From: Candidatus Delongbacteria bacterium
Lineage (GTDB): Bacteria > UBA4055
Length of the DNA: 35,782 nucleotides
Assembly (NCBI GenBank): GCA_028702975.1
Contig: JAQVNT010000001.1
Coordinates: forward strand, 1 to 35,782
Reading direction: 5' to 3'
Shown here: in pieces, positions 154 through 20,959 of the stretch
How the letters are laid out: every line of letters starts with the position of its first letter
How positions within the stretch are numbered: the first letter of the stretch is position 1
Program-made: the position numbers and the translations under genes
Notes under the pieces: model-generated
The model's input: the letters and a program-made list of their open reading frames with translations, nothing else
Told to the model about the DNA's origin: nothing
Databases searched by the model: none

Positions 154-1308
154 TTAAAAAGATAAAAGAACTGACAATAGCGCACAGACGGCGACATAAA
201 ATCCAACTATGTACCTTTTAATAAAACCTGCTTTATAATTTGACATAAAATACATCCCCATACTCATAAATCCCAGACCGCCTACTGTTACGAACAGCGG
301 AAAGCTGACAAATAAGTATAGAAGAGCCATTCCGGAGTTCATGGTAATTCTATTTATGATAAAAGTACCCCAGAAAGTGAACGATCCGAAAGCCAGCACA
401 TAGATCATGTAGATCGCTTTGCCTTTGTTCTTCTCCTGCTCGTCTATATTTGAGATCACCGCATATACAGCTTTACTTACGAGTTCCGGGATTATGAAAA
501 ACACGGTATAAATGAAAGCTGAGAACCTGTCGCCAGCATCATTATTCTTCTGTTCTTCCATTTCTGATTCGAGATCATCATTATTATCGGTTAGATCCGG
601 TTTGTCTGAACTGTGGGCAAGATATATAATTTCATCTTTATTGAACGACATTTCCGGTAATCGCTCGAACCCTCCTCTGAACCTGAGCCTGGATAAGTTC
701 AGCCCGTATGACTTTATTACTTCAGGGTAATCTTTTCCGTACCTTCTAAGATTCCCGGGAATTCCGTAAAGCCTTAGCCTGTCATTGTAGTTCATGTGCG
801 AATATTCCGAGGTCTTTTCCCTTTCCGGATCGACATTTGCCTGAAGTATCATTATTCCATCCGGTTTGAGTATCTTTTTGAGGTCGCTGATGAGCAGATT
901 AGGTCTGGGGTGTTTCTCAAGTATATAATTACAAATGATGATATCGGCTGAACCGGCTGCGTAATCACTTTTCTTGATCTCGTCCCTCATTCTGAAATCC
1001 GGCCGCGACGAGTAAATGTTGACATCGGAGTTCGGGTACTTTCTGAAAAAATCAGCCGCGACCCCTTCTTCTCCGACATAGAGTATTTTTAGCTCCCCTG
1101 ACAGCATCTGTGTCTTTGACAGCAGGAAAAGAAGCACAGTTCTCTCTTCAGCCGTTGATCCGCAAACGGGGCATATTTGACTCAGTTGTTTGGTAAGCTT
1201 GTATTTCGTCGCTATATAGAATCCCGAACAGAACGGGCAGTAGATGACATCGCCGCGGAAATACTGCTTTTTGTAGAACTCGTAATTATTTCTGATCGTT
1301 GAGAACAT
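154..1308 (-). CDS. Zn-ribbon + class I SAM-dependent methyltransferase fused to a C-terminal polytopic membrane domain (possible RiPP tailoring enzyme)
   Basis: 384-aa ORF. N-terminal CPFC...CPVC four-Cys pair. Rossmann-type MTase-like core (KILYVGEEG, ADIIICNYILEKH, LKPDGIMIL). An acidic linker is followed by about 4 hydrophobic helices in the last ~130 aa. AGGA lies upstream of the ATG. Same strand as the exporter and just downstream of it. Confidence 0.6.
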   Translation of the reverse strand: MFSTIRNNYEFYKKQYFRGDVIYCPFCSGFYIATKYKLTKQLSQICPVCGSTAEERTVLLFLLSKTQMLSGELKILYVGEEGVAADFFRKYPNSDVNIYSSRPDFRMRDEIKKSDYAAGSADIIICNYILEKHPRPNLLISDLKKILKPDGIMILQANVDPEREKTSEYSHMNYNDRLRLYGIPGNLRRYGKDYPEVIKSYGLNLSRLRFRGGFERLPEMSFNKDEIIYLAHSSDKPDLTDNNDDLESEMEEQKNNDAGDRFSAFIYTVFFIIPELVSKAVYAVISNIDEQEKNKGKAIYMIYVLAFGSFTFWGTFIINRITMNSGMALLYLFVSFPLFVTVGGLGFMSMGMYFMSNYKAGFIKRYIVGFYVAVCALLSVLLSF

Positions 1309-1375: not shown

Positions 1376-1579
1376 CTACCTCACTTTCTCAAATATTATA
1401 TCATAAACTGTTTTGCCGTCCTTATACTCAATGAACTTAGCTGAAAGTATCAACCCGATGATCAGAAGTGTTATGACCGTGATGCCGACCCTTACCGCCC
1501 AGTGAGGCCGATAGGTAAGTATTTCCTGTGTTTTCTCGCTTCTGTCTATTATATTATTTATTTTGCTCTCTTCAGGCAT
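1376..1579 (-). CDS. Small single-pass membrane protein resembling only the N-terminal anchor of a HlyD-family bacteriocin-secretion accessory protein (truncated remnant?)
   Basis: The ATG at 1579 lies 1 nt after the PCAT stop codon (TAATATG). The ORF track starts it at a TTG at 1597. The sequence RSEKTQEILTYRPHWAVRVGITVITLLIIGLILSAKFIEY looks like the cytoplasmic-tail plus TM start of HlyD-like proteins, but the ORF stops after ~67 aa. Confidence 0.4.
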   Translation of the reverse strand: MPEESKINNIIDRSEKTQEILTYRPHWAVRVGITVITLLIIGLILSAKFIEYKDGKTVYDIIFEKVR

Positions 1580-1580
1580 A

Positions 1581-3779
1581 TTAATTCCCCAGTTCAAGCT
1601 GATTTTTCACAAGATTGTAATAAGCGCCTTTAAGCTCTGCAAGTTCTTTGTGCGTACCTCTTTCAATTAACCTGCCTTTCTCAAGCACTACGATCTGATC
1701 GGCATTTTTTACTGTGCTGAGTCTGTGCGCGACTACAACAACGGTTTTTCCTTTGAAGAACTGATCAAGATTTTCCATTATGACCTTTTCATTATTGGCG
1801 TCAAGCGCATTGGTGGCTTCGTCAAAGAAAATGAATTCCGGATCTTTATAAACCGATCTCGCGATAAGCATTCTCTGTTTTTGACCCTGACTGAGTCCGT
1901 GCCCATCGCCCCCGATCTTTGTATTGTATCCCAAAGGTAGAGTTTCAATAAATTCTTCTATATTCGCAACATGAACCGCATGCTTAAGTTTATCCTTATC
2001 AGGCTTTTCGTCGCTGACGGAAATATTGTTCGCTATCGTATCGGAGAAGATAAAGCCCTCCTGCATGACAACACCGCATTTTTTTCGCCATTCATTGCTG
2101 TTTATGATCTCAAGATCATTCCTGCCTACCTCGATTTTTCCTTTTTGAGGTTTGTAAAATCCAAGAAGAAGTTTGATCAGCGTAGTCTTTCCGCTTCCGC
2201 TTGTGCCCACGATAGCCGTTATCTTCCCTTCAGGTATGGTTAGGTCGATATCCTTCAGCACCCATTCCGATTCAGGTCCTTCATACTGAAACGATACATC
2301 TTTTACCGTCAAAGTTTTATTATCGCCTATATCTTTGATCCTGTCTTCGTTGGTATTCTCCTCATCCTCCTTGTTGTGGATCTCACCGAGCCTTTCTAGA
2401 CTGATCTTTGCGTCCTGCATGGAGTGCATAAAATAAATCAGCTGAGAGACCGGGCTGTTGAGCTGACCGATTATATACTGAACGGATATCATCATACCGA
2501 GCGTCATATCTCCTTTGATAACCGCATAAGCCGAGAGGAAAGTAATAATAATATTCTTGCCCTCATTTATCAGCATACCACCGGAATTCTGGTACTGGTC
2601 GAGGCTAAGACTTTTTACATTGAGCTTGAACAGCTTAGCCTGAATATTCTCCCAGTCCCACCTTTTCTGCTTTTCGCAGGTGTTGAGCTTGATCTCCTGC
2701 ATACCCGTTATCATCTGGATAAGGTTGCTGTTGTTATCGGACATCACCTCGAACTTCTTAATGTCTATCGCTTTTCTTTTCTTTAAAAAAGCTTTTATCC
2801 ATAATACATAGAGAATGCTGCCTATCAGAAATACGAAGAAAATTTTCACGTTATAAATTATCAGGACTATGCTGAAAATCACAAAATTCACTGCCGAAAA
2901 AAGTATGCTCAAAGTCTGATTTGTCAGGAATGATTCGATCCTGTGATGGTCATTGATCCTCTGAAGCAGATCTCCTGTCATCTTTACATCAAAGAAACTG
3001 ATCGGAAGCTTCATCAGCTTGATTAGAAAGTCCGATATGATCGAAATATTGACCCTTGTGCTCAAATGAAGCAGTATCCAGCTCCGAATAAACTCAATAC
3101 CCGCCCTGCCGAAGAAAAGTGCAAGCTGAGCGATAAGGATGATCATTATAAAATTGACATCTTTTGTGTTAATACCCACATCTACGATCGCCTGCGTCAG
3201 GAAAGGGAAAACAAGCTGAATCAAACTCCCGGCCGCCATACCGATAATGAGCTGGACTATCAGTTTTTTGTACGGTTTTACATAATGGATCAGGAATTTG
3301 AAGCTGGTCTTATCAACTTTCTTCTTTTCGTCCTCGATATTATAAAAATCAGGCGAAGGTTCAAGCAGGAGAGCAACTCCGACAGGAACATCGTCAAGCT
3401 TATCCGAAGCCCAGCGCTTCATAAAATCTTCTCTTGAGTGCTTAAGAAGTCCGTGCGCAGGATCAGAAATCCAAACGAATTTATCTGTGATCTTGTAAAC
3501 AACAACGAAATGGTTTTGATTCCAGTGAACAATGCACGGCAGCTGAGAACTGACCATAAGAGAATCATAGCTTATCTTGACCCCTCTAGTTCTGAATCCC
3601 AGCTGTTCGGCTGCGTTACTGATGCTCAAAAGAGATACACCCTCACGGGTCGCGAAAGCCTTTTCCCGCAGTGTCTCCAATGAGTAAGTCTTACCGTAAT
3701 ATTGAGCTACTATGCGCAGAGCTGTAGGACCGCAGTCCATAGCGTCAAGCTGTTTAAAGGTGGGGAAAGACTTCAGCAA
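1581..3779 (-). CDS. Peptidase C39 domain-containing ABC transporter (PCAT; double-glycine leader cleavage and export)
   Basis: 732 aa. N-terminal C39 motif QLDAMDCGPTAL with downstream HWNQNHFVVVY and SDP (Cys/His/Asp). Six-TM ABC membrane domain. Walker A GTSGSGKTT, signature LSQGQKQR, Walker B IFFDEATNALD. TTG start. Confidence 0.93.
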   Translation of the reverse strand: MLKSFPTFKQLDAMDCGPTALRIVAQYYGKTYSLETLREKAFATREGVSLLSISNAAEQLGFRTRGVKISYDSLMVSSQLPCIVHWNQNHFVVVYKITDKFVWISDPAHGLLKHSREDFMKRWASDKLDDVPVGVALLLEPSPDFYNIEDEKKKVDKTSFKFLIHYVKPYKKLIVQLIIGMAAGSLIQLVFPFLTQAIVDVGINTKDVNFIMIILIAQLALFFGRAGIEFIRSWILLHLSTRVNISIISDFLIKLMKLPISFFDVKMTGDLLQRINDHHRIESFLTNQTLSILFSAVNFVIFSIVLIIYNVKIFFVFLIGSILYVLWIKAFLKKRKAIDIKKFEVMSDNNSNLIQMITGMQEIKLNTCEKQKRWDWENIQAKLFKLNVKSLSLDQYQNSGGMLINEGKNIIITFLSAYAVIKGDMTLGMMISVQYIIGQLNSPVSQLIYFMHSMQDAKISLERLGEIHNKEDEENTNEDRIKDIGDNKTLTVKDVSFQYEGPESEWVLKDIDLTIPEGKITAIVGTSGSGKTTLIKLLLGFYKPQKGKIEVGRNDLEIINSNEWRKKCGVVMQEGFIFSDTIANNISVSDEKPDKDKLKHAVHVANIEEFIETLPLGYNTKIGGDGHGLSQGQKQRMLIARSVYKDPEFIFFDEATNALDANNEKVIMENLDQFFKGKTVVVVAHRLSTVKNADQIVVLEKGRLIERGTHKELAELKGAYYNLVKNQLELGN

Positions 3780-3795
3780 TTTACAATCATAATAA

Positions 3796-4968
3796 TTATT
3801 TAATTAAATATTCAAATACTTTTATAACTTTCCCTTTTTCGTCATCGTAATCATCATAGTTATGATAATAGAGCCTATTGTTTACAAAAACAATTTTAAA
3901 TATACTGAAAGCTCCTGAAAAATCATGGTATTCAATTTCGTTAAAACTTACTGTGTTTTGAAAAACTCCATCAGTGTAAATATCTGCAATTAGAATATTA
4001 CTTTTATTTTCATTTCTTTCTTTCGTTGCTAACACCCATAAGTTTTCGTTATTGTCACAATAAATTGTATTAATAACTTTCTTCTTTAATTTCCCAAAGA
4101 GTTTACGCATATCTACATTATTAATTTGGCTCATCCAATCTAATTCAATTTCTGAATAGTATTTTACTCTGGATGAATTCTTTATAGTGTATTTATAATC
4201 GCCCGTGATAATATCATAAACCAATATTTCATAATCGTTTTCCGAGAGCCATGAAATAAATATCTCCCTGCTATTATTACAAATATATGGATAATATTTT
4301 GATCTGGCATCTAATATGCCTTCATGACTGACCTTCTTTTCTGAAATAGTTTTAGTTCTTTTAAAATAATTGTTTAATAAAACAATCTCCATATGGATTT
4401 CATATTTATTATCACCAATTATTTCCTCATCCCATGCAAAAGCTATAAAACTACTCTCGGTTAATTTATTTAATTCATAATAAAACCTGTCTAAAATTGT
4501 TGAATTCAAATAATTACCATCAAGATCAAATTTATTTATTTTGTAATCCCTTAGCGTAACGGCTAATAATGTATCCTGAATAATAATTAGTTTATCGTAA
4601 CCAGACGATTCACCTGGCCCTTTTCCCATTCTAGAAAATGTATTAATATATTCGCCTGCATTGTCATATTTGTATATTAAATTATTATTATCGTATGTTG
4701 AAATGAAGATATTGTCGTTTGAATCTGCAGTTAGTCCAAAAAAGTATTTGGGATTCAAATCATGGATTATTATACTACTATCATACTGATATATCTCAAA
4801 TAAATTGTTCAATTTTATATTCAGATCAGGATTAGCTGGAATATTTTTATTCAAATAAATTAAACCATTCTTATTAGATATTGTTTCATATGTATTATCC
4901 TTATCAGAGCATGAATATAGTAATGTGAAAATCAAAATAACATATATTTGTATAATTCTAACAATCAT
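3796..4968 (-). CDS. 6-bladed beta-propeller (NHL/TolB-like, BF3164/DUF5128-like) lipoprotein, paralogue A
   Basis: Signal peptide plus lipobox LLYSC. GKGPGE motif typical of this propeller family. Aligns over its full length with ORF 6788..7951. The ORF track extends to a TTG at 4992 that overlaps the rSAM stop. I prefer the ATG at 4968. Confidence 0.72.
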   Translation of the reverse strand: MIVRIIQIYVILIFTLLYSCSDKDNTYETISNKNGLIYLNKNIPANPDLNIKLNNLFEIYQYDSSIIIHDLNPKYFFGLTADSNDNIFISTYDNNNLIYKYDNAGEYINTFSRMGKGPGESSGYDKLIIIQDTLLAVTLRDYKINKFDLDGNYLNSTILDRFYYELNKLTESSFIAFAWDEEIIGDNKYEIHMEIVLLNNYFKRTKTISEKKVSHEGILDARSKYYPYICNNSREIFISWLSENDYEILVYDIITGDYKYTIKNSSRVKYYSEIELDWMSQINNVDMRKLFGKLKKKVINTIYCDNNENLWVLATKERNENKSNILIADIYTDGVFQNTVSFNEIEYHDFSGAFSIFKIVFVNNRLYYHNYDDYDDEKGKVIKVFEYLIK

Positions 4969-4988
4969 TTTTATCTCAAAAATTAAAA

Positions 4989-6407
4989 TCAATAATCATA
5001 TTCAAGGAATGCTTTTATTTGATTACTATTTAGCTTCTCCATCAAGTAACACGCTGCTTTAAAAATGGCTATTTTATAATTACAAATTGTAGAGTAATAT
5101 GTATATGTTTCATTGTAATCATTATTGATTCTTACATGTTGTGACAGGCATAAACCCGCGCAAATATTTCTTATTAAACAGTTCTTGCAATCAATTAATT
5201 CATTTGTGTTCTTCATTTTTTTCATATATAAATTAATTTTATTAAAATTAAAACCTGTTTTAATACAACCAATTTTGAATTTACTTGAAGAACATTTGAA
5301 ATCAGTACAAGGATAAAAATCACCTTGACTATCAATAAACACACTTGAGCCGAAAACTGCCATACAAACCGGGCAATTTTCGTTATTAATATTGAGTATT
5401 TTTCTTACAAAAATATGTAATTCTTCATATTTTACGAATTTCTCATTATTCTTTAATTTCTGAATTATAATTTTGGTCAATTCTTTCAGATGATACTCAA
5501 GTATTTCAAATTGACTATTGTATCTTAGTGGGGAAATATTAATACCTGAAGAATGATAAAATGGATTTGAAGATATTGATTTTACACCTAGCGAATCAAA
5601 GTATTTAATATTCTCAGAAAAATATCTGACAGAATACGGTGTCAAAATCATTAAAGCCTTTACAGGAATTTTATTTCTTAACAAAGAAATAAGATTTTTA
5701 TTAATAGTCTCAAAAGAACCATTTCCATTTTTATATTTTCTGTTTTGATCATTACAAATCTTAACACCATCGGATGATACAAGTACATAAAAATTGTATC
5801 TTCTAAAAAATTCAATTATTTCATCGTTAAGAATAGTTCCGTTTGTCGTAATTCCATATTGAATTGCAATATCATTCTTTTTCTCCTCGATATAATCAAC
5901 AATATCTGCTATCAAATTAAATTTTAATAACGGTTCACCGCCGAAAAAATTAATTCTCAAATTCTTGGACAATTTTGGATATTCAAAGATGCAATCTACA
6001 ATTTGCTTTGCAATATTCTCCTCCAGTGTTTTAGACCTTGTATTACCGAAAGATCCATAACAATAACTGCAACGTAGATTACAGTCTTCTGTAATTTCGA
6101 TTGTGATGTCTTTTAATATGTTCATCTCTTTCAAATTGAGTTTAGCACTTAGTTTCTCTGCAATTATAATTTGACTTGAAATCAAATTGTCTTTTAAAAT
6201 AATTAAATCCTCTATTTCTTTAATCGACATTTTGCTAATTCCATCATTGTTGAGCTTTATCTTATATAATGTGTTATACATTGCTTTTTTTATTGGAATA
6301 ACAATTGTAAAATCTAATAAAACGATATAGAAATTTCCATAATAACTAAACACATTCCACTTTTCATCTTCGAAATATGAATGCAATTCTTTTAATTCCT
6401 TTAACAT
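4989..6407 (-). CDS. Radical SAM/SPASM peptide maturase, paralogue A
   Basis: 472 aa. CNLRCSYC (CxxxCxxC), GGEPLL, and a complete SPASM Cys pattern (CMAVFGSSVFIDSQGDFYPC ... CKNCLIRNICAGLC). A ~100-aa N-terminal extension precedes the rSAM core. AAGGAG lies upstream of the ATG. Confidence 0.9.
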   Translation of the reverse strand: MLKELKELHSYFEDEKWNVFSYYGNFYIVLLDFTIVIPIKKAMYNTLYKIKLNNDGISKMSIKEIEDLIILKDNLISSQIIIAEKLSAKLNLKEMNILKDITIEITEDCNLRCSYCYGSFGNTRSKTLEENIAKQIVDCIFEYPKLSKNLRINFFGGEPLLKFNLIADIVDYIEEKKNDIAIQYGITTNGTILNDEIIEFFRRYNFYVLVSSDGVKICNDQNRKYKNGNGSFETINKNLISLLRNKIPVKALMILTPYSVRYFSENIKYFDSLGVKSISSNPFYHSSGINISPLRYNSQFEILEYHLKELTKIIIQKLKNNEKFVKYEELHIFVRKILNINNENCPVCMAVFGSSVFIDSQGDFYPCTDFKCSSSKFKIGCIKTGFNFNKINLYMKKMKNTNELIDCKNCLIRNICAGLCLSQHVRINNDYNETYTYYSTICNYKIAIFKAACYLMEKLNSNQIKAFLEYDY

Positions 6408-6423
6408 ATATTCTCCTTAATAT

Positions 6424-6455
6424 TGTTTAAAGAGGGGTTTGACCCTCTTTAAACA
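6424..6455 (-). terminator. Perfect 13-bp-stem hairpin between precursor A and maturase A (attenuator or mRNA-stabilising element)
   Basis: tgtttaaagaggg (6424-6436) / loop gtttga / ccctctttaaaca (6443-6455). It lies 22 nt after the precursor stop and about 16 nt before the maturase ATG. There is no clean U-tract. Confidence 0.5.
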
Positions 6456-6477
6456 AAAACATGCTACATGTGACAAA

Positions 6478-6627
6478 TCAATTCCAAACTGGTTTTGGTT
6501 TACTCATTACAGTATCGCATGCAGGCGTTATAGTTCCAGGAGTACCATCGTCTACTCCGCCCTTAATCTTTAACCCATCATTTTTTTTTAGGTTAAGAAT
6601 CACATATTTTTTCTTTGCCGTTTTCAT
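6478..6627 (-). CDS. RiPP precursor peptide A, 49 aa, double-glycine leader: MKTAKKKYVILNLKKNDGLKIKGG|VDDGTPGTITPACDTVMSKPKPVWN
   Basis: Hand-translated and absent from the ORF track (under 60 aa). AAGGAG SD lies upstream of the ATG, with an in-frame stop upstream. LKIKGG matches a PCAT cleavage site. A paralogue at 9468..9623 has the same architecture. The + strand ORF 6461..6649 is its antisense shadow. Confidence 0.8.
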   Translation of the reverse strand: MKTAKKKYVILNLKKNDGLKIKGGVDDGTPGTITPACDTVMSKPKPVWN

Positions 6628-6787
6628 TTTTTTTCTCCTTTTTTCTTAGTTAAACTCTTTTTAACCCGCGTCCGGATTTTTTCAAACTGCGCAATCTGCT
6701 AATTATTAATCTGTGTATCGAAGGTTTGTTAGGGTATTTCAAAAAATCTTATTTTTCTTAATCTACTCCTGATTCAACACATTAAAA

Positions 6788-7951
6788 TCATTGCCAGTTG
6801 TAATCAAATACTTTTATCACCCCTCCTTTCTCATCATCATATTTACCAAAATTATGATAATAAATTCTATTATTTTCAAAAACTAATTTAAATATTCTGA
6901 ACGCAGCAGAGAAGTCATGGTATTCAATTTCTTTAACATGTACAGTATTTTGAAATACACCTTTATAGAAAATGTCTGCTTTCAGAACATTTTTCTCACT
7001 ATCCTCTCTATCTTTTGTTGCTAATACCCAAAGATTGCCGTTTTTGTCACAACAAATTGTATTTATGGCTTTTTTCTTCAATTTACTTCCAAACAATTTT
7101 TGCATGTCTATATTATTAAATTTACTCAACCAGTCCATTTCGGAATTGGAATAATATTTGGATCTGAAATTGTTTTTTATCGTGAATTTATACTCACCCG
7201 TAAAAATATCATAAACTAAAATATCATAATCGTTTTCGGATAGCCATGAAATGAATATTTCGCTATTATTATTGCAAATGTATGGATAATATTTTGAAGT
7301 GACCGCAGTAATCCCTTCATGCTTAATCTCTCTGGATAAAATCAATTTCGTTTGTTTGAAATTATTATCTAACAAAACGATCTCCATAGTCACTTCATAA
7401 TTATTTTCTCCGACTATTTTCTCATTCCAAGAAAAACCAAGGAATTTATCATCAGCCAATTTTATGATTGATTCATAGAAACGATCTAAATTTAGAGCAG
7501 CGATGAAATTTCCGTTAAGGTTAAATTTATTTACTTTAAAATCTCTTGTACTTATAGCCAGCAAAATGTCTTTCGAGATAATAAGTTTTTCGTAACCGGA
7601 TGATTCTCCGGGGCCGTTACCTGTTTTAGAAAATGAACTTAAGAAGTTACCTCTGTTGTCGTACCTGTATATCAATCCTTTATTATCTTTTGTTATAACA
7701 AATAAAAACTTTTCATTCGCAGTAAACCCAAAAAAAGACTTAGGATTCAGACCAAGCTCTTGAAGATTACTGTCGAGCTGAGTAATCTCAAATAATTCAT
7801 TCAATTTTACATCTAGAGAAGGATTAGCAGGTATATTTTTGTTCAGGTAAACTATTTCTTCATCATTAGTAATGATTTGGTAAACATTCTGTTTTTCAGA
7901 ACACGATATTAAGGCAATCAATAACGCAAAAAAAACAATCCAAACTTTCAT
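6788..7951 (-). CDS. 6-bladed beta-propeller (NHL/TolB-like, BF3164/DUF5128-like) lipoprotein, paralogue B
   Basis: 387 aa. Signal peptide plus lipobox LISC. GNGPGE motif. Co-linear similarity to 3796..4968 along the whole length. Confidence 0.75.
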   Translation of the reverse strand: MKVWIVFFALLIALISCSEKQNVYQIITNDEEIVYLNKNIPANPSLDVKLNELFEITQLDSNLQELGLNPKSFFGFTANEKFLFVITKDNKGLIYRYDNRGNFLSSFSKTGNGPGESSGYEKLIISKDILLAISTRDFKVNKFNLNGNFIAALNLDRFYESIIKLADDKFLGFSWNEKIVGENNYEVTMEIVLLDNNFKQTKLILSREIKHEGITAVTSKYYPYICNNNSEIFISWLSENDYDILVYDIFTGEYKFTIKNNFRSKYYSNSEMDWLSKFNNIDMQKLFGSKLKKKAINTICCDKNGNLWVLATKDREDSEKNVLKADIFYKGVFQNTVHVKEIEYHDFSAAFRIFKLVFENNRIYYHNFGKYDDEKGGVIKVFDYNWQ

Positions 7952-7968
7952 TCATTTCCCATTTTATG

Positions 7969-18721: not shown

Positions 18722-20959
18722 TTAAAATTTAAATCTGACCGTTGTCCCGATCTTCCTTCCCGGCATCGGATAGCCGTATATCACCTGATACTGCTCATCA
18801 GTAATGTTCTGCCCGCTCAGAGTGACCGTATATGTGCCTTTTCCTGTCTTAAATTCCCTTGAGATCACCGCGCCATAAAGCCGGTACGGATAAATATCGA
18901 TCGAGTTAGTTTCGTTTAAAAACATCCGACCTGTATAGTCCGCGCTTAACTCAGCATGCCAACCGCTCCCGTCGAAACCGGCTTTAAGCGAAACAGTCTG
19001 CTCAGGTTTGTAAATGACCTTTTTCCCGTCTGTCACAGGATCATCAGTAAACTGCCGCGCGTCCATAAAATTATGATCTGCCGTGATATGGAAATTGTCC
19101 GAAATGTCGGCTCCTAAAGATATTTCATGCCCCGTTATCCTTCCTTCCTTCATATTCTCCGGTGTGTATCTTCCGTCCGTTCTTTTTATCCAGACGATCA
19201 AGTCCTCCAGATATTTTTCATAATATGTATAATTCAGCCTTAAAGTTGCAAAGTCCAGATCGAGAGAGTTCTTTACTGAAGCCTCGTACTGATCGCAGTA
19301 TTCAGCCTCGAGGTCCGGGTTGCCTGAGCTGAAGAGATTTTCCGCCCAGAAGAGATCGGAGAAAGTAGGTAAAGTATAGCTTTGGAAGTAACCGAATGAA
19401 ACATTAACGGTCAGGTTGTCTTTAATGTATTCTCCCGAGCATGAAGCCGAGAACATAGGTCTGTCAAAATTCTGACCGGAGATAATATCCTTTCTGACCG
19501 AGCCCGAAATCTTCCCCTTAACAGAATTTGTAATATTTTGAGTATATTCACCTTTCAGGTACGACGAAATGATCCGCCTCTCATGCTCATCATCCTGCAG
19601 ATATTCCGATCCTGCCGTCTCGTAAAAATATCCTGCTCCCGGTCTGAATGTCAGCCTGAAGTATTTAAGTACTCCCGAGAGGTTTACATCGAAGGTTTGA
19701 AATATATCTTCAGAGTCAATATGGAAGATCGAGTCCGTCTCGGCGATCTTTGTTCTTGAATTCAGTTTGCTGTATGAGGCTTTTAACGATGATGATATAC
19801 TTTCGGTAAATGATAATTTAGTTCCTGCGCTCAGGATAAGGTTCTTAGATTCTTTAAAAGCCTCATAATACGGCTGATCGTACCAGCCGGGAAGCCCGTA
19901 CCGCTTTTCAGAGTAGCCCGCACCCGCATTTATCTCTCCTTTTTCGAGAGTGTAATTATATGATGCGTAGAGATCGTCCGAATCGGACCCGGAGTTCGAC
20001 TGCTCCCTCGGGGTGTTCGGGTGGTTGATGTAGCGGTACTCGTCGGCTTTCGCGGCGTTGATGAACGACCACTCGTTGGCGTTACGCCGCGCAGTGTAGG
20101 AGAAAAACACCCCGTGTTTTTCTCCGTAGCCGCGCTTCAGGCTTAACCCGAAACCGTGGTTGTTAAGCCTGCCGGTGCTGAAATCGTCCCTGTCGCTCTG
20201 ATAGAGCCCGTTCGTATAGAATATTTCAGCACCGTTCGTGCCGGCGGCCTTTTTGGTCGTGATGCTTATCACGCCCCCGGCCGACCGGCCCGTCAGCGCG
20301 GCGTCGCCAGTTTTGAAGATCTCGATCTTCTCTATCATTCCGGCGGGGATCGCGGAAAGATCGCACGAGCCGTCCATGGCGGAATTTATCATGACCCCGT
20401 CGAGCAGTACCGCGGTGTGCCTTGTGTCGGTGCCGCGGACGGAGATCTTTGAACTTGAGCCGTCAATCCTTTCCACCCTTATTCCCGGCAGGCTTTTTAC
20501 AGCCGCCTCAGCGTCCGCCGCCCCGGAAGACGAGATGTCTCTTCCGCTCAATACAAGATCGGGCTTTGTTTCCCGGCCGGTCACTGCGACTACAGGCTCA
20601 AGGTCTATCACTCTGCTCTTCATGACCACATTCAGAACAATCTCTTCTTTTGAGCCCGATATGATAAATTCCGAGGCGGAGTTACAGCAGATGTGCTCAA
20701 AAATGATCTTTCTGCTCCCGTCCGGAATGCCGCTCAAAAAAAACCTGCCACCGCTGTCGGATACCGTGCCGTAAACCGTGCCCTCTACCGTGATATTGAC
20801 ATCCTGAACGGGCCTGCCCTTCTCATCGGTCACGGTTCCTGTTATCCGCGAAGCGGAGAACACCAGCGCCGCCGAGCCCAGTAATATTACCAGTATAGCC
20901 CTTAAATTAAAATTCCTGCCGGGTAGGACAGGAATGTATTCGAAAAACTTGTTTTTCAA
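18722..20959 (-). CDS. TonB-dependent outer-membrane receptor with N-terminal carboxypeptidase-regulatory-like domain (probable cobalamin/corrinoid receptor)
   Basis: 745 aa. ITGTVTDEKGRPVQDVNITVEG (CarbopepD_reg-like), a plug domain, and a beta-barrel ending in RFKF. TTG start with GGGGAG upstream. A cobalamin-riboswitch-like leader lies upstream. Confidence 0.88.
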   Translation of the reverse strand: MKNKFFEYIPVLPGRNFNLRAILVILLGSAALVFSASRITGTVTDEKGRPVQDVNITVEGTVYGTVSDSGGRFFLSGIPDGSRKIIFEHICCNSASEFIISGSKEEIVLNVVMKSRVIDLEPVVAVTGRETKPDLVLSGRDISSSGAADAEAAVKSLPGIRVERIDGSSSKISVRGTDTRHTAVLLDGVMINSAMDGSCDLSAIPAGMIEKIEIFKTGDAALTGRSAGGVISITTKKAAGTNGAEIFYTNGLYQSDRDDFSTGRLNNHGFGLSLKRGYGEKHGVFFSYTARRNANEWSFINAAKADEYRYINHPNTPREQSNSGSDSDDLYASYNYTLEKGEINAGAGYSEKRYGLPGWYDQPYYEAFKESKNLILSAGTKLSFTESISSSLKASYSKLNSRTKIAETDSIFHIDSEDIFQTFDVNLSGVLKYFRLTFRPGAGYFYETAGSEYLQDDEHERRIISSYLKGEYTQNITNSVKGKISGSVRKDIISGQNFDRPMFSASCSGEYIKDNLTVNVSFGYFQSYTLPTFSDLFWAENLFSSGNPDLEAEYCDQYEASVKNSLDLDFATLRLNYTYYEKYLEDLIVWIKRTDGRYTPENMKEGRITGHEISLGADISDNFHITADHNFMDARQFTDDPVTDGKKVIYKPEQTVSLKAGFDGSGWHAELSADYTGRMFLNETNSIDIYPYRLYGAVISREFKTGKGTYTVTLSGQNITDEQYQVIYGYPMPGRKIGTTVRFKF

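What the first reader, a model, noticed from the sequence alone, without database searches (positions are those of the whole stretch)
3796..7951. Each precursor/maturase pair carries its own exported 6-bladed propeller lipoprotein (3796..4968 and 6788..7951): immunity protein, receptor, or peptide-binding partner?
Seen: both propellers have Sec signal peptides with lipoboxes (LLYSC, LISC), so they act outside the cytoplasm. That is after rSAM modification and PCAT export. They diverged in parallel with their precursors. Established analogies: (i) bacteriocin immunity lipoproteins; (ii) quinohemoprotein amine dehydrogenase, where a small peptide subunit is crosslinked through Cys-to-Asp/Glu thioethers by the rSAM/SPASM enzyme QhpD, is exported, and then assembles with partners that include a beta-propeller subunit; (iii) peptidyl-alpha-hydroxyglycine alpha-amidating lyase, a 6-bladed propeller that processes peptide C-termini. 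Inference: the modified peptide may be a tightly bound ligand or subunit of its cognate propeller, or a substrate of it, rather than a free bacteriocin. The Cys plus acidic core fits analogy (ii).
Basis: inference. Interest (0 to 1): 0.75.

Follow-up and report, generated by a model that had tools for sequence, protein, structure and literature searches.

The report
Propeller lipoprotein in each peptide cassette
A small, horizontally moving gene island in an uncultured anaerobic-digester bacterium holds two copies of a three-gene unit (precursor peptide, radical-SAM modifying enzyme, lipid-anchored six-bladed propeller protein); the propeller clearly belongs to the unit and is most likely its peptide-binding self-protection protein, but this is untested.

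Summary
ORFs 3796-4968 and 6788-7951 (minus strand) are 60% identical paralogues. Each has a signal peptide ending in a lipobox Cys and an AlphaFold2 six-bladed NHL-type propeller (pLDDT 87, pTM 0.83-0.86). They are distant, orphan relatives of Pfam PF17170/DUF5128; the nearest structure is 4RAA.

Each lies 17-20 nt downstream of its own rSAM/SPASM maturase and GG-leader precursor, in a 2,995-nt tandem duplication. The segment 3742-9645 (26-30% GC) is 99.2% identical between two lineages whose flanks, including the adjacent PCAT exporter, are only 65-88% identical. So precursor, maturase and propeller travel as one module.

The QHNDH and PAL analogies fail their defining features. In 160 loci of relatives, only two independent cases (both Cloacimonadota) sit in rSAM-peptide operons, so the family is not RiPP-specific. 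Paralogue divergence is not focused on the putative binding face.

The best reading, at confidence 0.4, is a cassette-specific peptide-binding immunity lipoprotein, as in variable bacteriocin/immunity regions next to a conserved exporter. Rivals are a periplasmic tailoring enzyme, a receptor, a holo-protein subunit, or a passenger. I found no paper on such a pairing in six searches of the held library.

The parts
9468..9623 (-). Precursor B (51 aa): leader MKQSKKKYLILNLKKEGLKIRGG, core VEEGTPGTTARKCDFGQDLNTGFTPIQY
   Evidence: ORF. It is 68% identical to precursor A over the leader plus the first 14 core residues. It is intact in 5 other contigs, with one core change (F38P) in L003.
7969..9396 (-). 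rSAM/SPASM maturase B (475 aa)
   Evidence: Pfam Radical_SAM and Fer4_12. Best NCBIfam hit is PapB at 185 bits (cut-off 340); QhpD scores 129 bits (cut-off 453). It is 54% identical to maturase A.
6788..7951 (-). Propeller lipoprotein B (387 aa, lipobox LISC, Cys17)
   Evidence: AlphaFold2 model: pLDDT 87.6, pTM 0.86, six blades. Foldseek top hit 4RAA, then NHL domains. Its start is 17 nt after the rSAM-B stop codon.
6478..6627 (-). Precursor A (49 aa): leader MKTAKKKYVILNLKKNDGLKIKGG, core VDDGTPGTITPACDTVMSKPKPVWN
   Evidence: The protein is identical in all 8 other contigs that carry it.
4989..6407 (-). rSAM/SPASM maturase A (472 aa)
   Evidence: Pfam Radical_SAM and Fer4_12. PapB 205.6 bits, CcpM 180 bits and QhpD 159 bits, all below their cut-offs. 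Beyond maturase B, the next relatives are about 32% identical.
3796..4968 (-). Propeller lipoprotein A (390 aa from the ATG; 398 aa from the TTG at 4992; lipobox LYSC, Cys20)
   Evidence: AlphaFold2 model: pLDDT 86.6, pTM 0.83, same six-blade layout.
3742..9645 (.). Low-GC island (26-30% GC, against about 40% in the flanks) made of two 2,995-nt tandem cassettes. It is 99.2% identical to contig L003, whose flanks are 65-88% identical to the window.
   Evidence: GC profile; per-gene and sliding-window identity; mismatch positions that set the borders; direct repeats spaced 2,974-2,998 nt apart.
9624..9678 (-). Conserved 5' leader region of cassette B (RBS-like AAGGAG and a CCGGACGCGG element). 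Its paralogous copy is at 6628-6680, upstream of precursor A.
   Evidence: Repeat families D14 and D18 are 89-91% identical, higher than the coding repeats at 71-78%.
6628..6680 (-). Conserved 5' leader region of cassette A
   Evidence: families D14, D18. It is 100% identical in all strain contigs.
1581..3779 (-). PCAT exporter (C39 peptidase + ABC, 732 aa, TTG start). It is resident in the host and is not part of the island.
   Evidence: Pfam Peptidase_C39, ABC_membrane and ABC_tran. It is only 86% identical to its L003 counterpart, against 98-100% for the island. GC is about 41%.
1376..1597 (-). 73-aa single-TM ORF after the PCAT. It may be a remnant of an HlyD-type membrane fusion protein; no full MFP is present.
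   Evidence: It is conserved in L003 and L017. The match to the N-terminus of an HlyD_3 protein of L093 is weak (E=0.015; Pfam for that protein).

Best explanation
Each propeller is a lipid-anchored, extracytoplasmic binding protein dedicated to the peptide made by its own cassette. Its most likely role is producer self-protection (immunity), by sequestering or blocking the mature peptide in the cell envelope.

Proposed sequence of events:
1. The precursor is bound through its leader and modified by its own rSAM/SPASM enzyme. The chemistry is probably one thioether from the single Cys13 to a conserved Asp, Glu or Thr in the shared V[DE][DE]GTPGT...CD motif. This step is inferred.
2. The resident PCAT cleaves after the Gly-Gly and exports the core. 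This is inferred from the domains and the GG motif.
3. The Sec/Lol-exported propeller lipoprotein meets the peptide outside the cytoplasm and neutralises it for the producer. This is inferred from gene architecture alone.

What is shown: the two propellers are real exported six-bladed NHL-type lipoproteins. They belong to a two-cassette module that was duplicated as a unit and moves between lineages as a unit.
For: - One propeller per precursor/maturase pair. The gaps from maturase stop to propeller start are 17-20 nt, on the same strand with no terminator-like site inside the island.
- The duplication unit of 2,995 nt contains the 5' leader, precursor, rSAM and propeller.
- Both copies are intact at 60% identity, and intact in 9 further contigs from other samples.
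- The island 3742-9645 is 99.2% identical between two lineages whose PCAT is 86% identical and whose other flank is 65-78% identical. This is the architecture of variable bacteriocin/immunity regions placed next to a conserved exporter (established knowledge, e.g. the pneumococcal blp locus).
- The island has no other immunity candidate: no ABC-2 transporter and no small membrane protein.
- The family shows no conserved catalytic-looking residues. Its invariant positions are the lipobox Cys, the NHL motif GxGPGE, a few Gly and one Asp, which fits a binding scaffold.
- Two further, non-orthologous rSAM-peptide operons in Cloacimonadota also contain such lipoproteins. L008 has rSAM, a 97-aa ORF, a Cys-rich 54-aa peptide, an ABC exporter and a propeller. 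L075 has an rSAM nested among five paralogous propeller lipoproteins, which resembles an array of orphan immunity genes.
- There is a precedent for a periplasmic immunity protein with a partial propeller fold: Tsi1 (PMC3391265).
Against:
- Relatives of the propeller are mostly unrelated to RiPPs. Outside the window lineage, only L008 (which is the same contig as L094) and L075 among 160 loci are tightly linked to an rSAM. Immediate neighbours are mostly other paralogues, FGE-sulfatase-like lipoproteins and methyltransferases.
- Divergence between propA and propB is not concentrated in the putative top-face loops: DA loops are 66% identical and strands 64%. A specificity-determining surface matched to the divergent peptide tails is therefore not visible.
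- No full beta-propeller immunity protein is known. A 2012 survey noted that propellers were absent among immunity proteins of polymorphic toxin systems (PMC3482391).
- It is not shown that the peptides are antibacterial at all.
Confidence: 0.4

Rival explanations
1. The propeller is a periplasmic tailoring enzyme or maturation chaperone. It would perform or assist a late step on the exported peptide, such as cleavage, elimination, cyclisation or oxidation, in the way NHL or propeller proteins act in other pathways.
For: - It is tightly coupled to the maturase and belongs to the mobile module.
- The putative top-face DA loops are as conserved between the paralogues as the strands are, and the two cores share a 14-residue motif. 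This would suit a common reaction on the conserved part of the peptide.
- Three His (B: 211, 345, 366) and two Cys are conserved in both paralogues.
- The family profile weakly matches PAL (3fvz, E=1.5e-4), and NCBIfam gives weak hits to ScyF, a scytonemin-cluster NHL protein.
- From general knowledge: virginiamycin B lyase is a propeller that inactivates a cyclic peptide antibiotic.
Against: - The His and Cys are not conserved in P0003, the L008 propeller or the wider family.
- The PAL and ScyF matches cover only the generic NHL blades.
- The peptide C-termini (Asn, Tyr) are not PAL substrates, and there is no PHM partner.
- If the reaction targeted the shared motif, one copy would be enough, yet both are kept.
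Confidence: 0.22
2. The propeller is a receptor or capture lipoprotein, surface-exposed or periplasmic. It would bind the exported peptide for signalling or re-uptake, with the peptide acting as a pheromone or metal carrier, like the BtuG and XusB propeller lipoproteins of Bacteroides.
For: - Foldseek finds BtuG1/2, BT2095 and XusB among the matches (E about 5e-7).
- The organism is a diderm of the FCB type: the window encodes a TonB-dependent receptor, a SurA-like protein and a T9SS C-terminal domain.
- Two AraC-type HTH genes lie directly upstream of the island.
- The core, with one Cys and several acidic residues, could bind a metal (inference).
Against: - TM-scores to BtuG and XusB are low (0.33-0.47), which is generic propeller similarity.
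- No TonB-dependent transporter or sensor kinase is adjacent; the nearest TonB-dependent receptor is about 9 kb from the island's edge and outside it.
- TonB-dependent receptors are not among the 25 commonest neighbour families of the relatives.
Confidence: 0.13
3. The modified peptide is a stably bound subunit or cofactor of the propeller. Together they would form a periplasmic holo-protein, by analogy with the QhpC-QhpB subunits of quinohemoprotein amine dehydrogenase.
For: - An rSAM/SPASM enzyme distantly related to QhpD is present (159 and 129 bits).
- The core combines Cys with acidic residues.
- The peptide is exported and the propeller partner is also exported.
- No full membrane fusion protein is present, so the peptide may stay in the periplasm.
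Against: - QhpD scores are far below the 453-bit cut-off, and PapB and CcpM score higher.
- There is one Cys per core, and no Trp shared by both cores from which a quinone cofactor could form.
- No heme-c subunit, QhpE or QhpG was found among the ORFs scanned.
- The fold has six NHL-type blades, not seven.
- The module behaves like a mobile, duplicated, diversifying cassette, which is unusual for a metabolic enzyme.
Confidence: 0.08
4. The propellers are passengers. They would be members of a large paralogous lipoprotein family with an unrelated envelope function that happen to lie in the cassettes.
For: - The family is large: 50,583 library hits at E<=0.001, many of them generic NHL repeat proteins.
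- It forms tandem arrays of up to 7 copies per 20 kb.
- It occurs in heterogeneous contexts without an rSAM in about 98% of the sampled loci.
- Homologues of the window's methyltransferase (154-1308) neighbour propeller homologues in L011 and L031 without any rSAM.
Against: - The propeller has been retained in both cassettes since a duplication old enough to reach 60% identity, with 17-20 nt spacing from the maturase.
- It shares the island's low GC and its 99% inter-lineage identity.
- The tight rSAM-propeller linkage recurs independently in L008 and L075.
Confidence: 0.1

Closest known systems
Pfam PF17170 (DUF5128) '6-bladed beta-propeller' lipoproteins, NHL clan; solved example 4RAA (BF0058, Bacteroides fragilis)
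   Same: - N-terminal lipoprotein signal with a conserved Cys.
- About 370-400 aa, with six four-stranded blades.
- The NHL-type F-[SG]-x-x-G-x-G-P-G-E motif in blade 2.
- The nearest homologues carry PF17170, and 4RAA is the best structural match.
   Different: - The window proteins do not reach the Pfam model at E<=0.01.
- They are at most 30% identical to any relative outside their own lineage.
- The family has no assigned function and is usually not next to rSAM or peptide genes.
Ranthipeptide / Cys-rich-peptide rSAM RiPP clusters with a GG leader and PCAT export (PapB, CcpM, QhpD-like SPASM maturases)
   Same: - An rSAM/SPASM maturase whose best matches are PapB, CcpM, nif11-type, SCIFF and QhpD.
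- A short precursor with a Gly-Gly leader end and a Cys/Asp/Glu/Thr core.
- A C39-ABC exporter next door.
- PCAT plus GG-motif precursors are a recurrent theme in Bacteroidales RiPP clusters (PMC10352776).
   Different: - Every curated NCBIfam model scores below its cut-off.
- There is only one Cys per core.
- Each precursor has its own maturase and its own propeller lipoprotein.
- The term 'propeller' does not occur in PMC10352776, and the nearest rSAM relatives (L092, L093) have no propeller.
Bacteriocin immunity lipoproteins (LanI-type such as NisI and SpaI) and variable bacteriocin/immunity regions beside a conserved exporter
   Same: - A lipid-anchored extracytoplasmic protein encoded one-to-one with a peptide.
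- A cassette that is duplicated, diversified and horizontally exchanged, while the transporter is resident.
- The comparison itself rests on general knowledge of these systems.
   Different: - No sequence or family relationship was detected.
- The fold is a full six-bladed propeller, which has not been described for an immunity protein; PMC3482391 notes its absence, and Tsi1 is only a partial propeller.
- The host is a diderm.
- The function is untested.
Quinohemoprotein amine dehydrogenase (QhpABC with QhpD, QhpE, QhpF, QhpG)
   Same: An rSAM/SPASM enzyme acts on a small Cys- and acid-containing peptide, which is exported by an ABC transporter and meets an exported propeller protein.
   Different: - The maturases are not QhpD orthologues (159 and 129 bits against a 453-bit cut-off).
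- The core has a single Cys.
- No heme subunit, protease or flavoprotein partner is present.
- The fold has 6 blades, not 7.
- The locus is a mobile, duplicated cassette.
Peptidyl-alpha-hydroxyglycine alpha-amidating lyase (PAL; 3FVZ)
   Same: Six-bladed NHL-type propeller that acts on peptides; there is a weak profile match (E=1.5e-4).
   Different: - The match covers about two blades only.
- There is no family-conserved His triad.
- The precursors do not end in Gly.
- There is no hydroxylating monooxygenase partner.
BtuG / XusB surface-exposed propeller lipoproteins of Bacteroides
   Same: Lipid-anchored propellers of FCB-group bacteria that capture a small ligand with high affinity; they appear among the Foldseek matches.
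   Different: - TM-scores are low (0.33-0.47).
- Those proteins work with an adjacent TonB-dependent transporter, and none is adjacent here or among the 25 commonest neighbour families of the relatives.

Membership tests
PF17170 / DUF5128 6-bladed beta-propeller (NHL clan) | Match to the Pfam model above its gathering score | tested here: not met
   propA and propB give no PF17170 hit at E<=0.01. The link is indirect: P0003 (29% identical, full length) and P0004 carry PF17170, and a 4-sequence profile retrieves 117 proteins, nearly all PF17170.
PF17170 / DUF5128 6-bladed beta-propeller (NHL clan) | Six four-stranded blades; structural similarity to solved members | tested here: met
   AlphaFold2 models have pLDDT 87.6 and 86.6, with 24 main strands in 6 blades. 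The Foldseek top hit is 4RAA (E=1.4e-10, TM 0.51/0.55), followed by NHL domains.
PF17170 / DUF5128 6-bladed beta-propeller (NHL clan) | N-terminal lipoprotein signal and the NHL G-x-G-P-G-E motif | tested here: met
   Cys17 is conserved in at least 90% of 91 homologues, and G111, G113, P114 and E116 are invariant.
Quinohemoprotein amine dehydrogenase system | QhpD-type maturase (TIGR03906, cut-off 453 bits) | tested here: not met
   Scores are 159.4 and 128.8 bits. PapB, CcpM and nif11-type models score higher.
Quinohemoprotein amine dehydrogenase system | Gamma subunit with several Cys-to-Asp/Glu crosslinks and a Trp-derived quinone | tested here: not met
   Each core has one Cys. Trp is present only in core A (sequences).
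Quinohemoprotein amine dehydrogenase system | Heme-c alpha subunit, 7-bladed beta subunit, QhpE protease, QhpG flavoprotein | tested here: not met
   None appears among the ORFs scanned in the window. The propeller has six blades of NHL type.
Peptidylglycine amidating lyase (PAL) | Conserved Zn-binding His triad and catalytic Tyr/Arg in the central cavity | tested here: inconclusive
   No His is conserved across the family. Three His are shared by propA and propB only.
Peptidylglycine amidating lyase (PAL) | Substrate with C-terminal (hydroxy)glycine and a PHM partner | tested here: not met
   The cores end in ...PVWN and ...TPIQY. No copper monooxygenase domain was found.
PapB-family ranthipeptide maturase (NF047865) | Score at or above the 340-bit cut-off | tested here: not met
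   Scores are 205.6 and 185.0 bits. PapB is the best-scoring family but remains below its cut-off.
PapB-family ranthipeptide maturase (NF047865) | Cys to non-alpha carbon thioether in the product | not testable with these tools
   This needs mass spectrometry and NMR of the product. The cores do contain the required Cys together with Asp, Glu and Thr.
GG-leader / PCAT export | C39 peptidase + ABC transporter, and precursors with a Gly-Gly cleavage motif | tested here: met
   Peptidase_C39 (E=7.6e-35), ABC_membrane and ABC_tran are present. The catalytic-type QLDAMDCGP motif is present. The leaders end in KIKGG and KIRGG. The precursors match no curated leader model.
GG-leader / PCAT export | Membrane fusion protein and outer-membrane partner for secretion across two membranes | tested here: not met
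   Only a 73-aa single-TM ORF follows the PCAT. No HlyD or TolC domain was detected in the ORFs scanned.
LanI-type bacteriocin immunity lipoproteins | Sequence or fold relationship to NisI/SpaI | tested here: not met
   Pfam and NCBIfam give no such hit. The fold is a propeller.
LanI-type bacteriocin immunity lipoproteins | Confers protection against the cognate peptide | not testable with these tools
   This requires genetics or bioassays.
BtuG/XusB ligand-capturing surface lipoproteins | Genetic pairing with a TonB-dependent transporter | tested here: not met
   The nearest TonB-dependent receptor is at 18722-20959, outside the island. TonB-dependent receptors are not among the 25 commonest families in the neighbour census.

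The most novel reading that the evidence does not exclude
The modified peptides are not free bacteriocins. Each would be a tightly bound, rSAM-crosslinked ligand or subunit of its own six-bladed NHL lipoprotein, forming a new kind of periplasmic or surface holo-protein. PF17170-type propellers would then be a so far unrecognised class of RiPP partner proteins in Delongbacteria and Cloacimonadota. The two other rSAM-propeller operons (L008, L075) would be further members.
Probability: 0.1. Interest if true: 0.85.

Novelty: new variant of a known kind. Interest (0 to 1): 0.5.

Why it matters
rSAM-modified peptides with GG leaders and PCAT export are a known kind of system. A dedicated propeller lipoprotein in every cassette is not described in the papers I could search.

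If the propeller is the immunity protein, it would be the first full beta-propeller immunity protein. It would also give a first function to part of the large DUF5128 family of FCB-group and related bacteria.

If instead it is an enzyme or a holo-protein partner, it would show that RiPP maturation or function continues in the periplasm of diderm bacteria.

The finding that the two-cassette module is almost identical in lineages whose flanks differ by 12-35% gives a clean, small (5.9 kb) unit for heterologous expression.

Tried and rejected
- Direct Pfam and NCBIfam assignment of the propellers gave only sub-threshold Reg_prop and ScyF-NHL hits.
No binding prediction exists.
- I tested whether propA/propB divergence is concentrated on the putative top face. 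Identities were DA 66%, BC 57%, AB 37%, CD 60% and strands 64%. Top against bottom gave Fisher p=0.14, so there is no signal for a diverged binding face.
- The promoter and terminator scan found nothing above the shuffled expectation, and no terminator-like site lies inside the island.
- I looked for propellers next to the nearest rSAM relatives (L092, L093) and found none.
- I looked for rSAMs within 10 kb of 160 propeller relatives. Only L008 (= L094) and L075 are tightly linked. The rSAM in L055 lies 8 kb away on the other strand and is probably unrelated, and L014 gave only a weak hit.
- Literature searches for DUF5128, PF17170 and NVEALA returned no paper. Searches for radical SAM with propeller lipoprotein, for propeller immunity lipoproteins, and for the TIGR0413x/0414x accessions returned only papers that do not describe such a pairing.
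- Strain-level co-variation is too sparse to interpret: preB F38P alongside propB E31K and K220R.

Full report
**What is there.** On the minus strand the window carries, in order of transcription:
- precursor B (9468-9623, 51 aa);
- rSAM-B (7969-9396);
- propeller B (6788-7951, 387 aa);
- precursor A (6478-6627, 49 aa);
- rSAM-A (4989-6407);
- propeller A (3796-4968, 390 aa; an alternative TTG at 4992 gives 398 aa);
- a C39-ABC exporter, or PCAT (1581-3779);
- a 73-aa single-TM ORF (1376-1597);
- a methyltransferase with a C-terminal membrane domain (154-1308).

The propellers are 60% identical (E=3e-171) and the rSAMs 54%. The precursors are 68% identical over the leader and the first 14 core residues, after which the tails are unrelated.

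**Are they exported six-bladed propeller lipoproteins?** Both N-termini have a short positive n-region, a hydrophobic stretch and a lipobox. The lipobox is LISC in B (canonical) and LYSC in A (Tyr at -2 is unusual). The Cys is conserved in at least 90% of 91 homologues. I had no signal-peptide predictor, so this rests on the sequence and on family conservation.

AlphaFold2 with an 87-91-sequence alignment gives confident models: B has pLDDT 87.6 and pTM 0.86, A has 86.6 and 0.83. Each has 24 main strands that form six four-stranded blades, an N-terminal strand that closes the ring, and a two-helix insertion between blades 4 and 5. Foldseek's best PDB match is 4RAA, an exported protein of Bacteroides fragilis, followed by NHL domains such as Brat, TRIM2/3 and TRIM71.

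By sequence the two proteins are orphans. Among 5.8 billion clustered proteins, only their own lineage and two distant proteins (29% and 28% identical) are within single-sequence reach, and both of those carry PF17170/DUF5128. The propellers themselves do not reach the Pfam model. A profile search links them to 117 mostly PF17170 proteins and, through the NHL blades, to tens of thousands of NHL repeat proteins. The invariant G-x-G-P-G-E is the ordinary NHL repeat signature, not a catalytic motif.

**The propellers belong to the cassette.**
- Gaps are 71 and 70 nt from precursor to rSAM, 17 and 20 nt from rSAM to propeller, and 16 nt from propeller A to the PCAT. No terminator-like site lies inside the island.
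- Direct repeats spaced 2,974-2,998 nt apart show a tandem duplication of the whole unit: 5' leader, precursor, rSAM and propeller. The 5' leader regions (89-91% identical) are better conserved than the coding parts (71-78%).
- The island has 26-30% GC against about 40% around it.
- The most informative result comes from comparing the window with L003, a contig from another metagenome. The segment 3742-9645 has 49 mismatches in 5.9 kb (99.2% identity). The PCAT immediately next to it is 86% identical, and the other flank is 65-78% identical.
- So precursors, maturases and propellers moved, or swept, between two diverged lineages as one module. The exporter is resident in the host.
- The same module is seen intact in nine other contigs, including the NCBI MAG GCA_028690285.1, labelled Candidatus Delongbacteria.

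**Is the pairing general?** It is not general at family level.
- In 80 genome loci and 80 metagenome loci that encode relatives (19-29% identical overall in the better matches), an rSAM lies within 10 kb in very few cases.
- L008 and L094 are the same Cloacimonadota contig. L075 is a Cloacimonadales chromosome. L055 has an rSAM 8 kb away on the other strand, probably unrelated.
- Immediate neighbours of the relatives are mostly further paralogues (14 of 117), FGE-sulfatase-like lipoproteins (3) and methyltransferases (3), and are otherwise heterogeneous.
- The nearest rSAM relatives (30-32% identical) have no propeller nearby.
- The two positive cases are nevertheless striking in their arrangement. 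L008 reads rSAM/SPASM, a 97-aa ORF, a Cys-rich 54-aa peptide, an ABC exporter, then a propeller lipoprotein after a 22-nt gap. This propeller is the closest genomic relative of the window proteins. L075 has a CcpM-like rSAM nested among five paralogous GPGE lipoproteins, next to an ABC exporter.
But the relatives are too distant to be orthologues, and recruitment into rSAM operons has happened at least three times.

**Testing the three analogies.**

(ii) QHNDH.
- The rSAMs score 159 and 129 bits on the QhpD model, whose cut-off is 453 bits. They score higher on PapB, CcpM and nif11-type models, all below their cut-offs.
- Each core has one Cys, and the two cores share no Trp.
- No heme, protease or flavoprotein partner is present.
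- The fold has six NHL blades rather than seven.
- Membership fails on every tested feature. Only the abstract idea of an exported crosslinked peptide meeting an exported propeller survives.

(iii) PAL.
- The profile match is E=1.5e-4 over two blades.
- The cores end in Asn and Tyr.
- No His is conserved in the family. Three His and two Cys are shared by the two paralogues only. I could not inspect their geometry.

(i) Immunity.
- There is no homology to known immunity lipoproteins, but the architecture fits best. There is one lipoprotein per peptide. The cassette is duplicated, diversified and horizontally exchanged next to a conserved exporter. The island has no other immunity candidate.
- Against it: divergence between the paralogues is not concentrated on the putative ligand face. 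Full propellers are not known as immunity proteins (PMC3482391), and Tsi1 is only a partial propeller (PMC3391265). Antibacterial activity of the peptides is only assumed.

**Mechanism proposed, with shown and inferred steps kept apart.**
- Shown: the gene content, the fold, the lipoprotein signal, the duplication unit, and the co-transfer of the module.
- Inferred: the rSAM installs one crosslink from Cys13 within the conserved V[DE][DE]GTPGT...CD segment. The PCAT cleaves after Gly-Gly and exports the core. Because only a 73-aa remnant-like ORF stands where a membrane fusion protein is expected, the peptide may first reach the periplasm. There the lipid-anchored propeller binds it.
- I rate immunity by binding at 0.40, a periplasmic tailoring enzyme or chaperone at 0.22, a receptor or capture protein at 0.13, an unrelated passenger at 0.10, and a holo-protein subunit at 0.08.

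**Novelty and score.** The RiPP part is a new member of a known kind: an rSAM/SPASM maturase, a GG leader and a PCAT. This theme is already noted in Bacteroidales (PMC10352776). The per-cassette propeller lipoprotein is a variant I could not find described. Its function is unresolved, and its family is mostly unrelated to RiPPs, so I score interest at 0.5. The small mobile module makes the question directly testable.

Noticed in passing
window 3742-9645, compared with L003 (JGI 3300010350 contig): The low-GC two-cassette island is 99.2% identical between two lineages whose flanking genes are 65-88% identical (the PCAT is 86%). The borders fall about 38 nt inside the PCAT start and about 22 nt upstream of the precursor B start codon. 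This suggests recent horizontal exchange, or a gene-specific sweep, by homologous recombination at a fixed site.
   Followed up: yes
window 154-1308 (-); L011 18172-19380, L031 1283-2434, L017 1688-2851: A 384-aa protein with an N-terminal Cys4 zinc-ribbon-like motif, a class I methyltransferase domain and a C-terminal multi-TM region lies downstream of the PCAT. Its homologues sit directly next to propeller homologues in L011 and L031 without any rSAM. In L003 the same position holds a different 976-aa gene. The role of this protein is unknown.
   Followed up: partly
window 1376-1597 (-): A 73-aa single-TM ORF follows the PCAT where an HlyD-type membrane fusion protein would be expected. It is conserved as a short ORF in L003 and L017, and it matches the N-terminus of an HlyD_3 protein only weakly (E=0.015). 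Either it is a conserved remnant or a small protein with its own role. No full MFP is present.
   Followed up: partly
L011 9986-15200 and L012 3-3164: Propeller lipoprotein paralogues alternate with about 300-aa FGE-sulfatase-domain (SUMF1-like) lipoproteins in repeated pairs. This is another recurrent one-to-one pairing of this propeller family with an exported partner.
   Followed up: partly
L075 5300-12700 (Cloacimonadales chromosome contig CALODV010000013.1): A CcpM-like rSAM/SPASM gene (464 aa) is nested among five paralogous lipoproteins of about 305-325 aa that carry the GPGE motif (PF17170/TolB_like hits). An ABC exporter and a 58-aa ORF are nearby. The ORF's two Cys lie before its GG, so its status as a precursor is doubtful.
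   Followed up: partly
L008 6454-10943 (Cloacimonadota MAG PDON01000025.1; same contig as L094): This is a compact operon: a small rSAM/SPASM (352 aa), a 97-aa ORF that may be an RRE-like partner with no family hit, a 54-aa Cys-rich peptide, an ABC exporter without a C39 domain, and the closest genomic relative of the window propellers.
   Followed up: partly
window 9795-10148 and 10126-10479 (-): Two tandem 117-aa paralogues carry only an AraC-type HTH_18 domain. They lie directly upstream of the island, outside the high-identity segment, and are candidate regulators of the locus.
   Followed up: no
window 10739-10900 (-): A 53-aa ORF has a signal-peptide-like N-terminus and a Trp/Pro-rich tail (…ETVCPDWVWINGTWVYTGTDPNPQPPPPVKG). 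It is also called as a gene in L003 and L088. It is unannotated.
   Followed up: no
window 1581-3779 (-), compared with gene calls in L003 and L088: The PCAT starts at a TTG. The JGI gene call (640 aa) omits the C39 peptidase domain, while the NCBI call keeps it. Two assemblies (L088, L017) break inside this gene, which suggests strain heterogeneity downstream of the island.
   Followed up: partly
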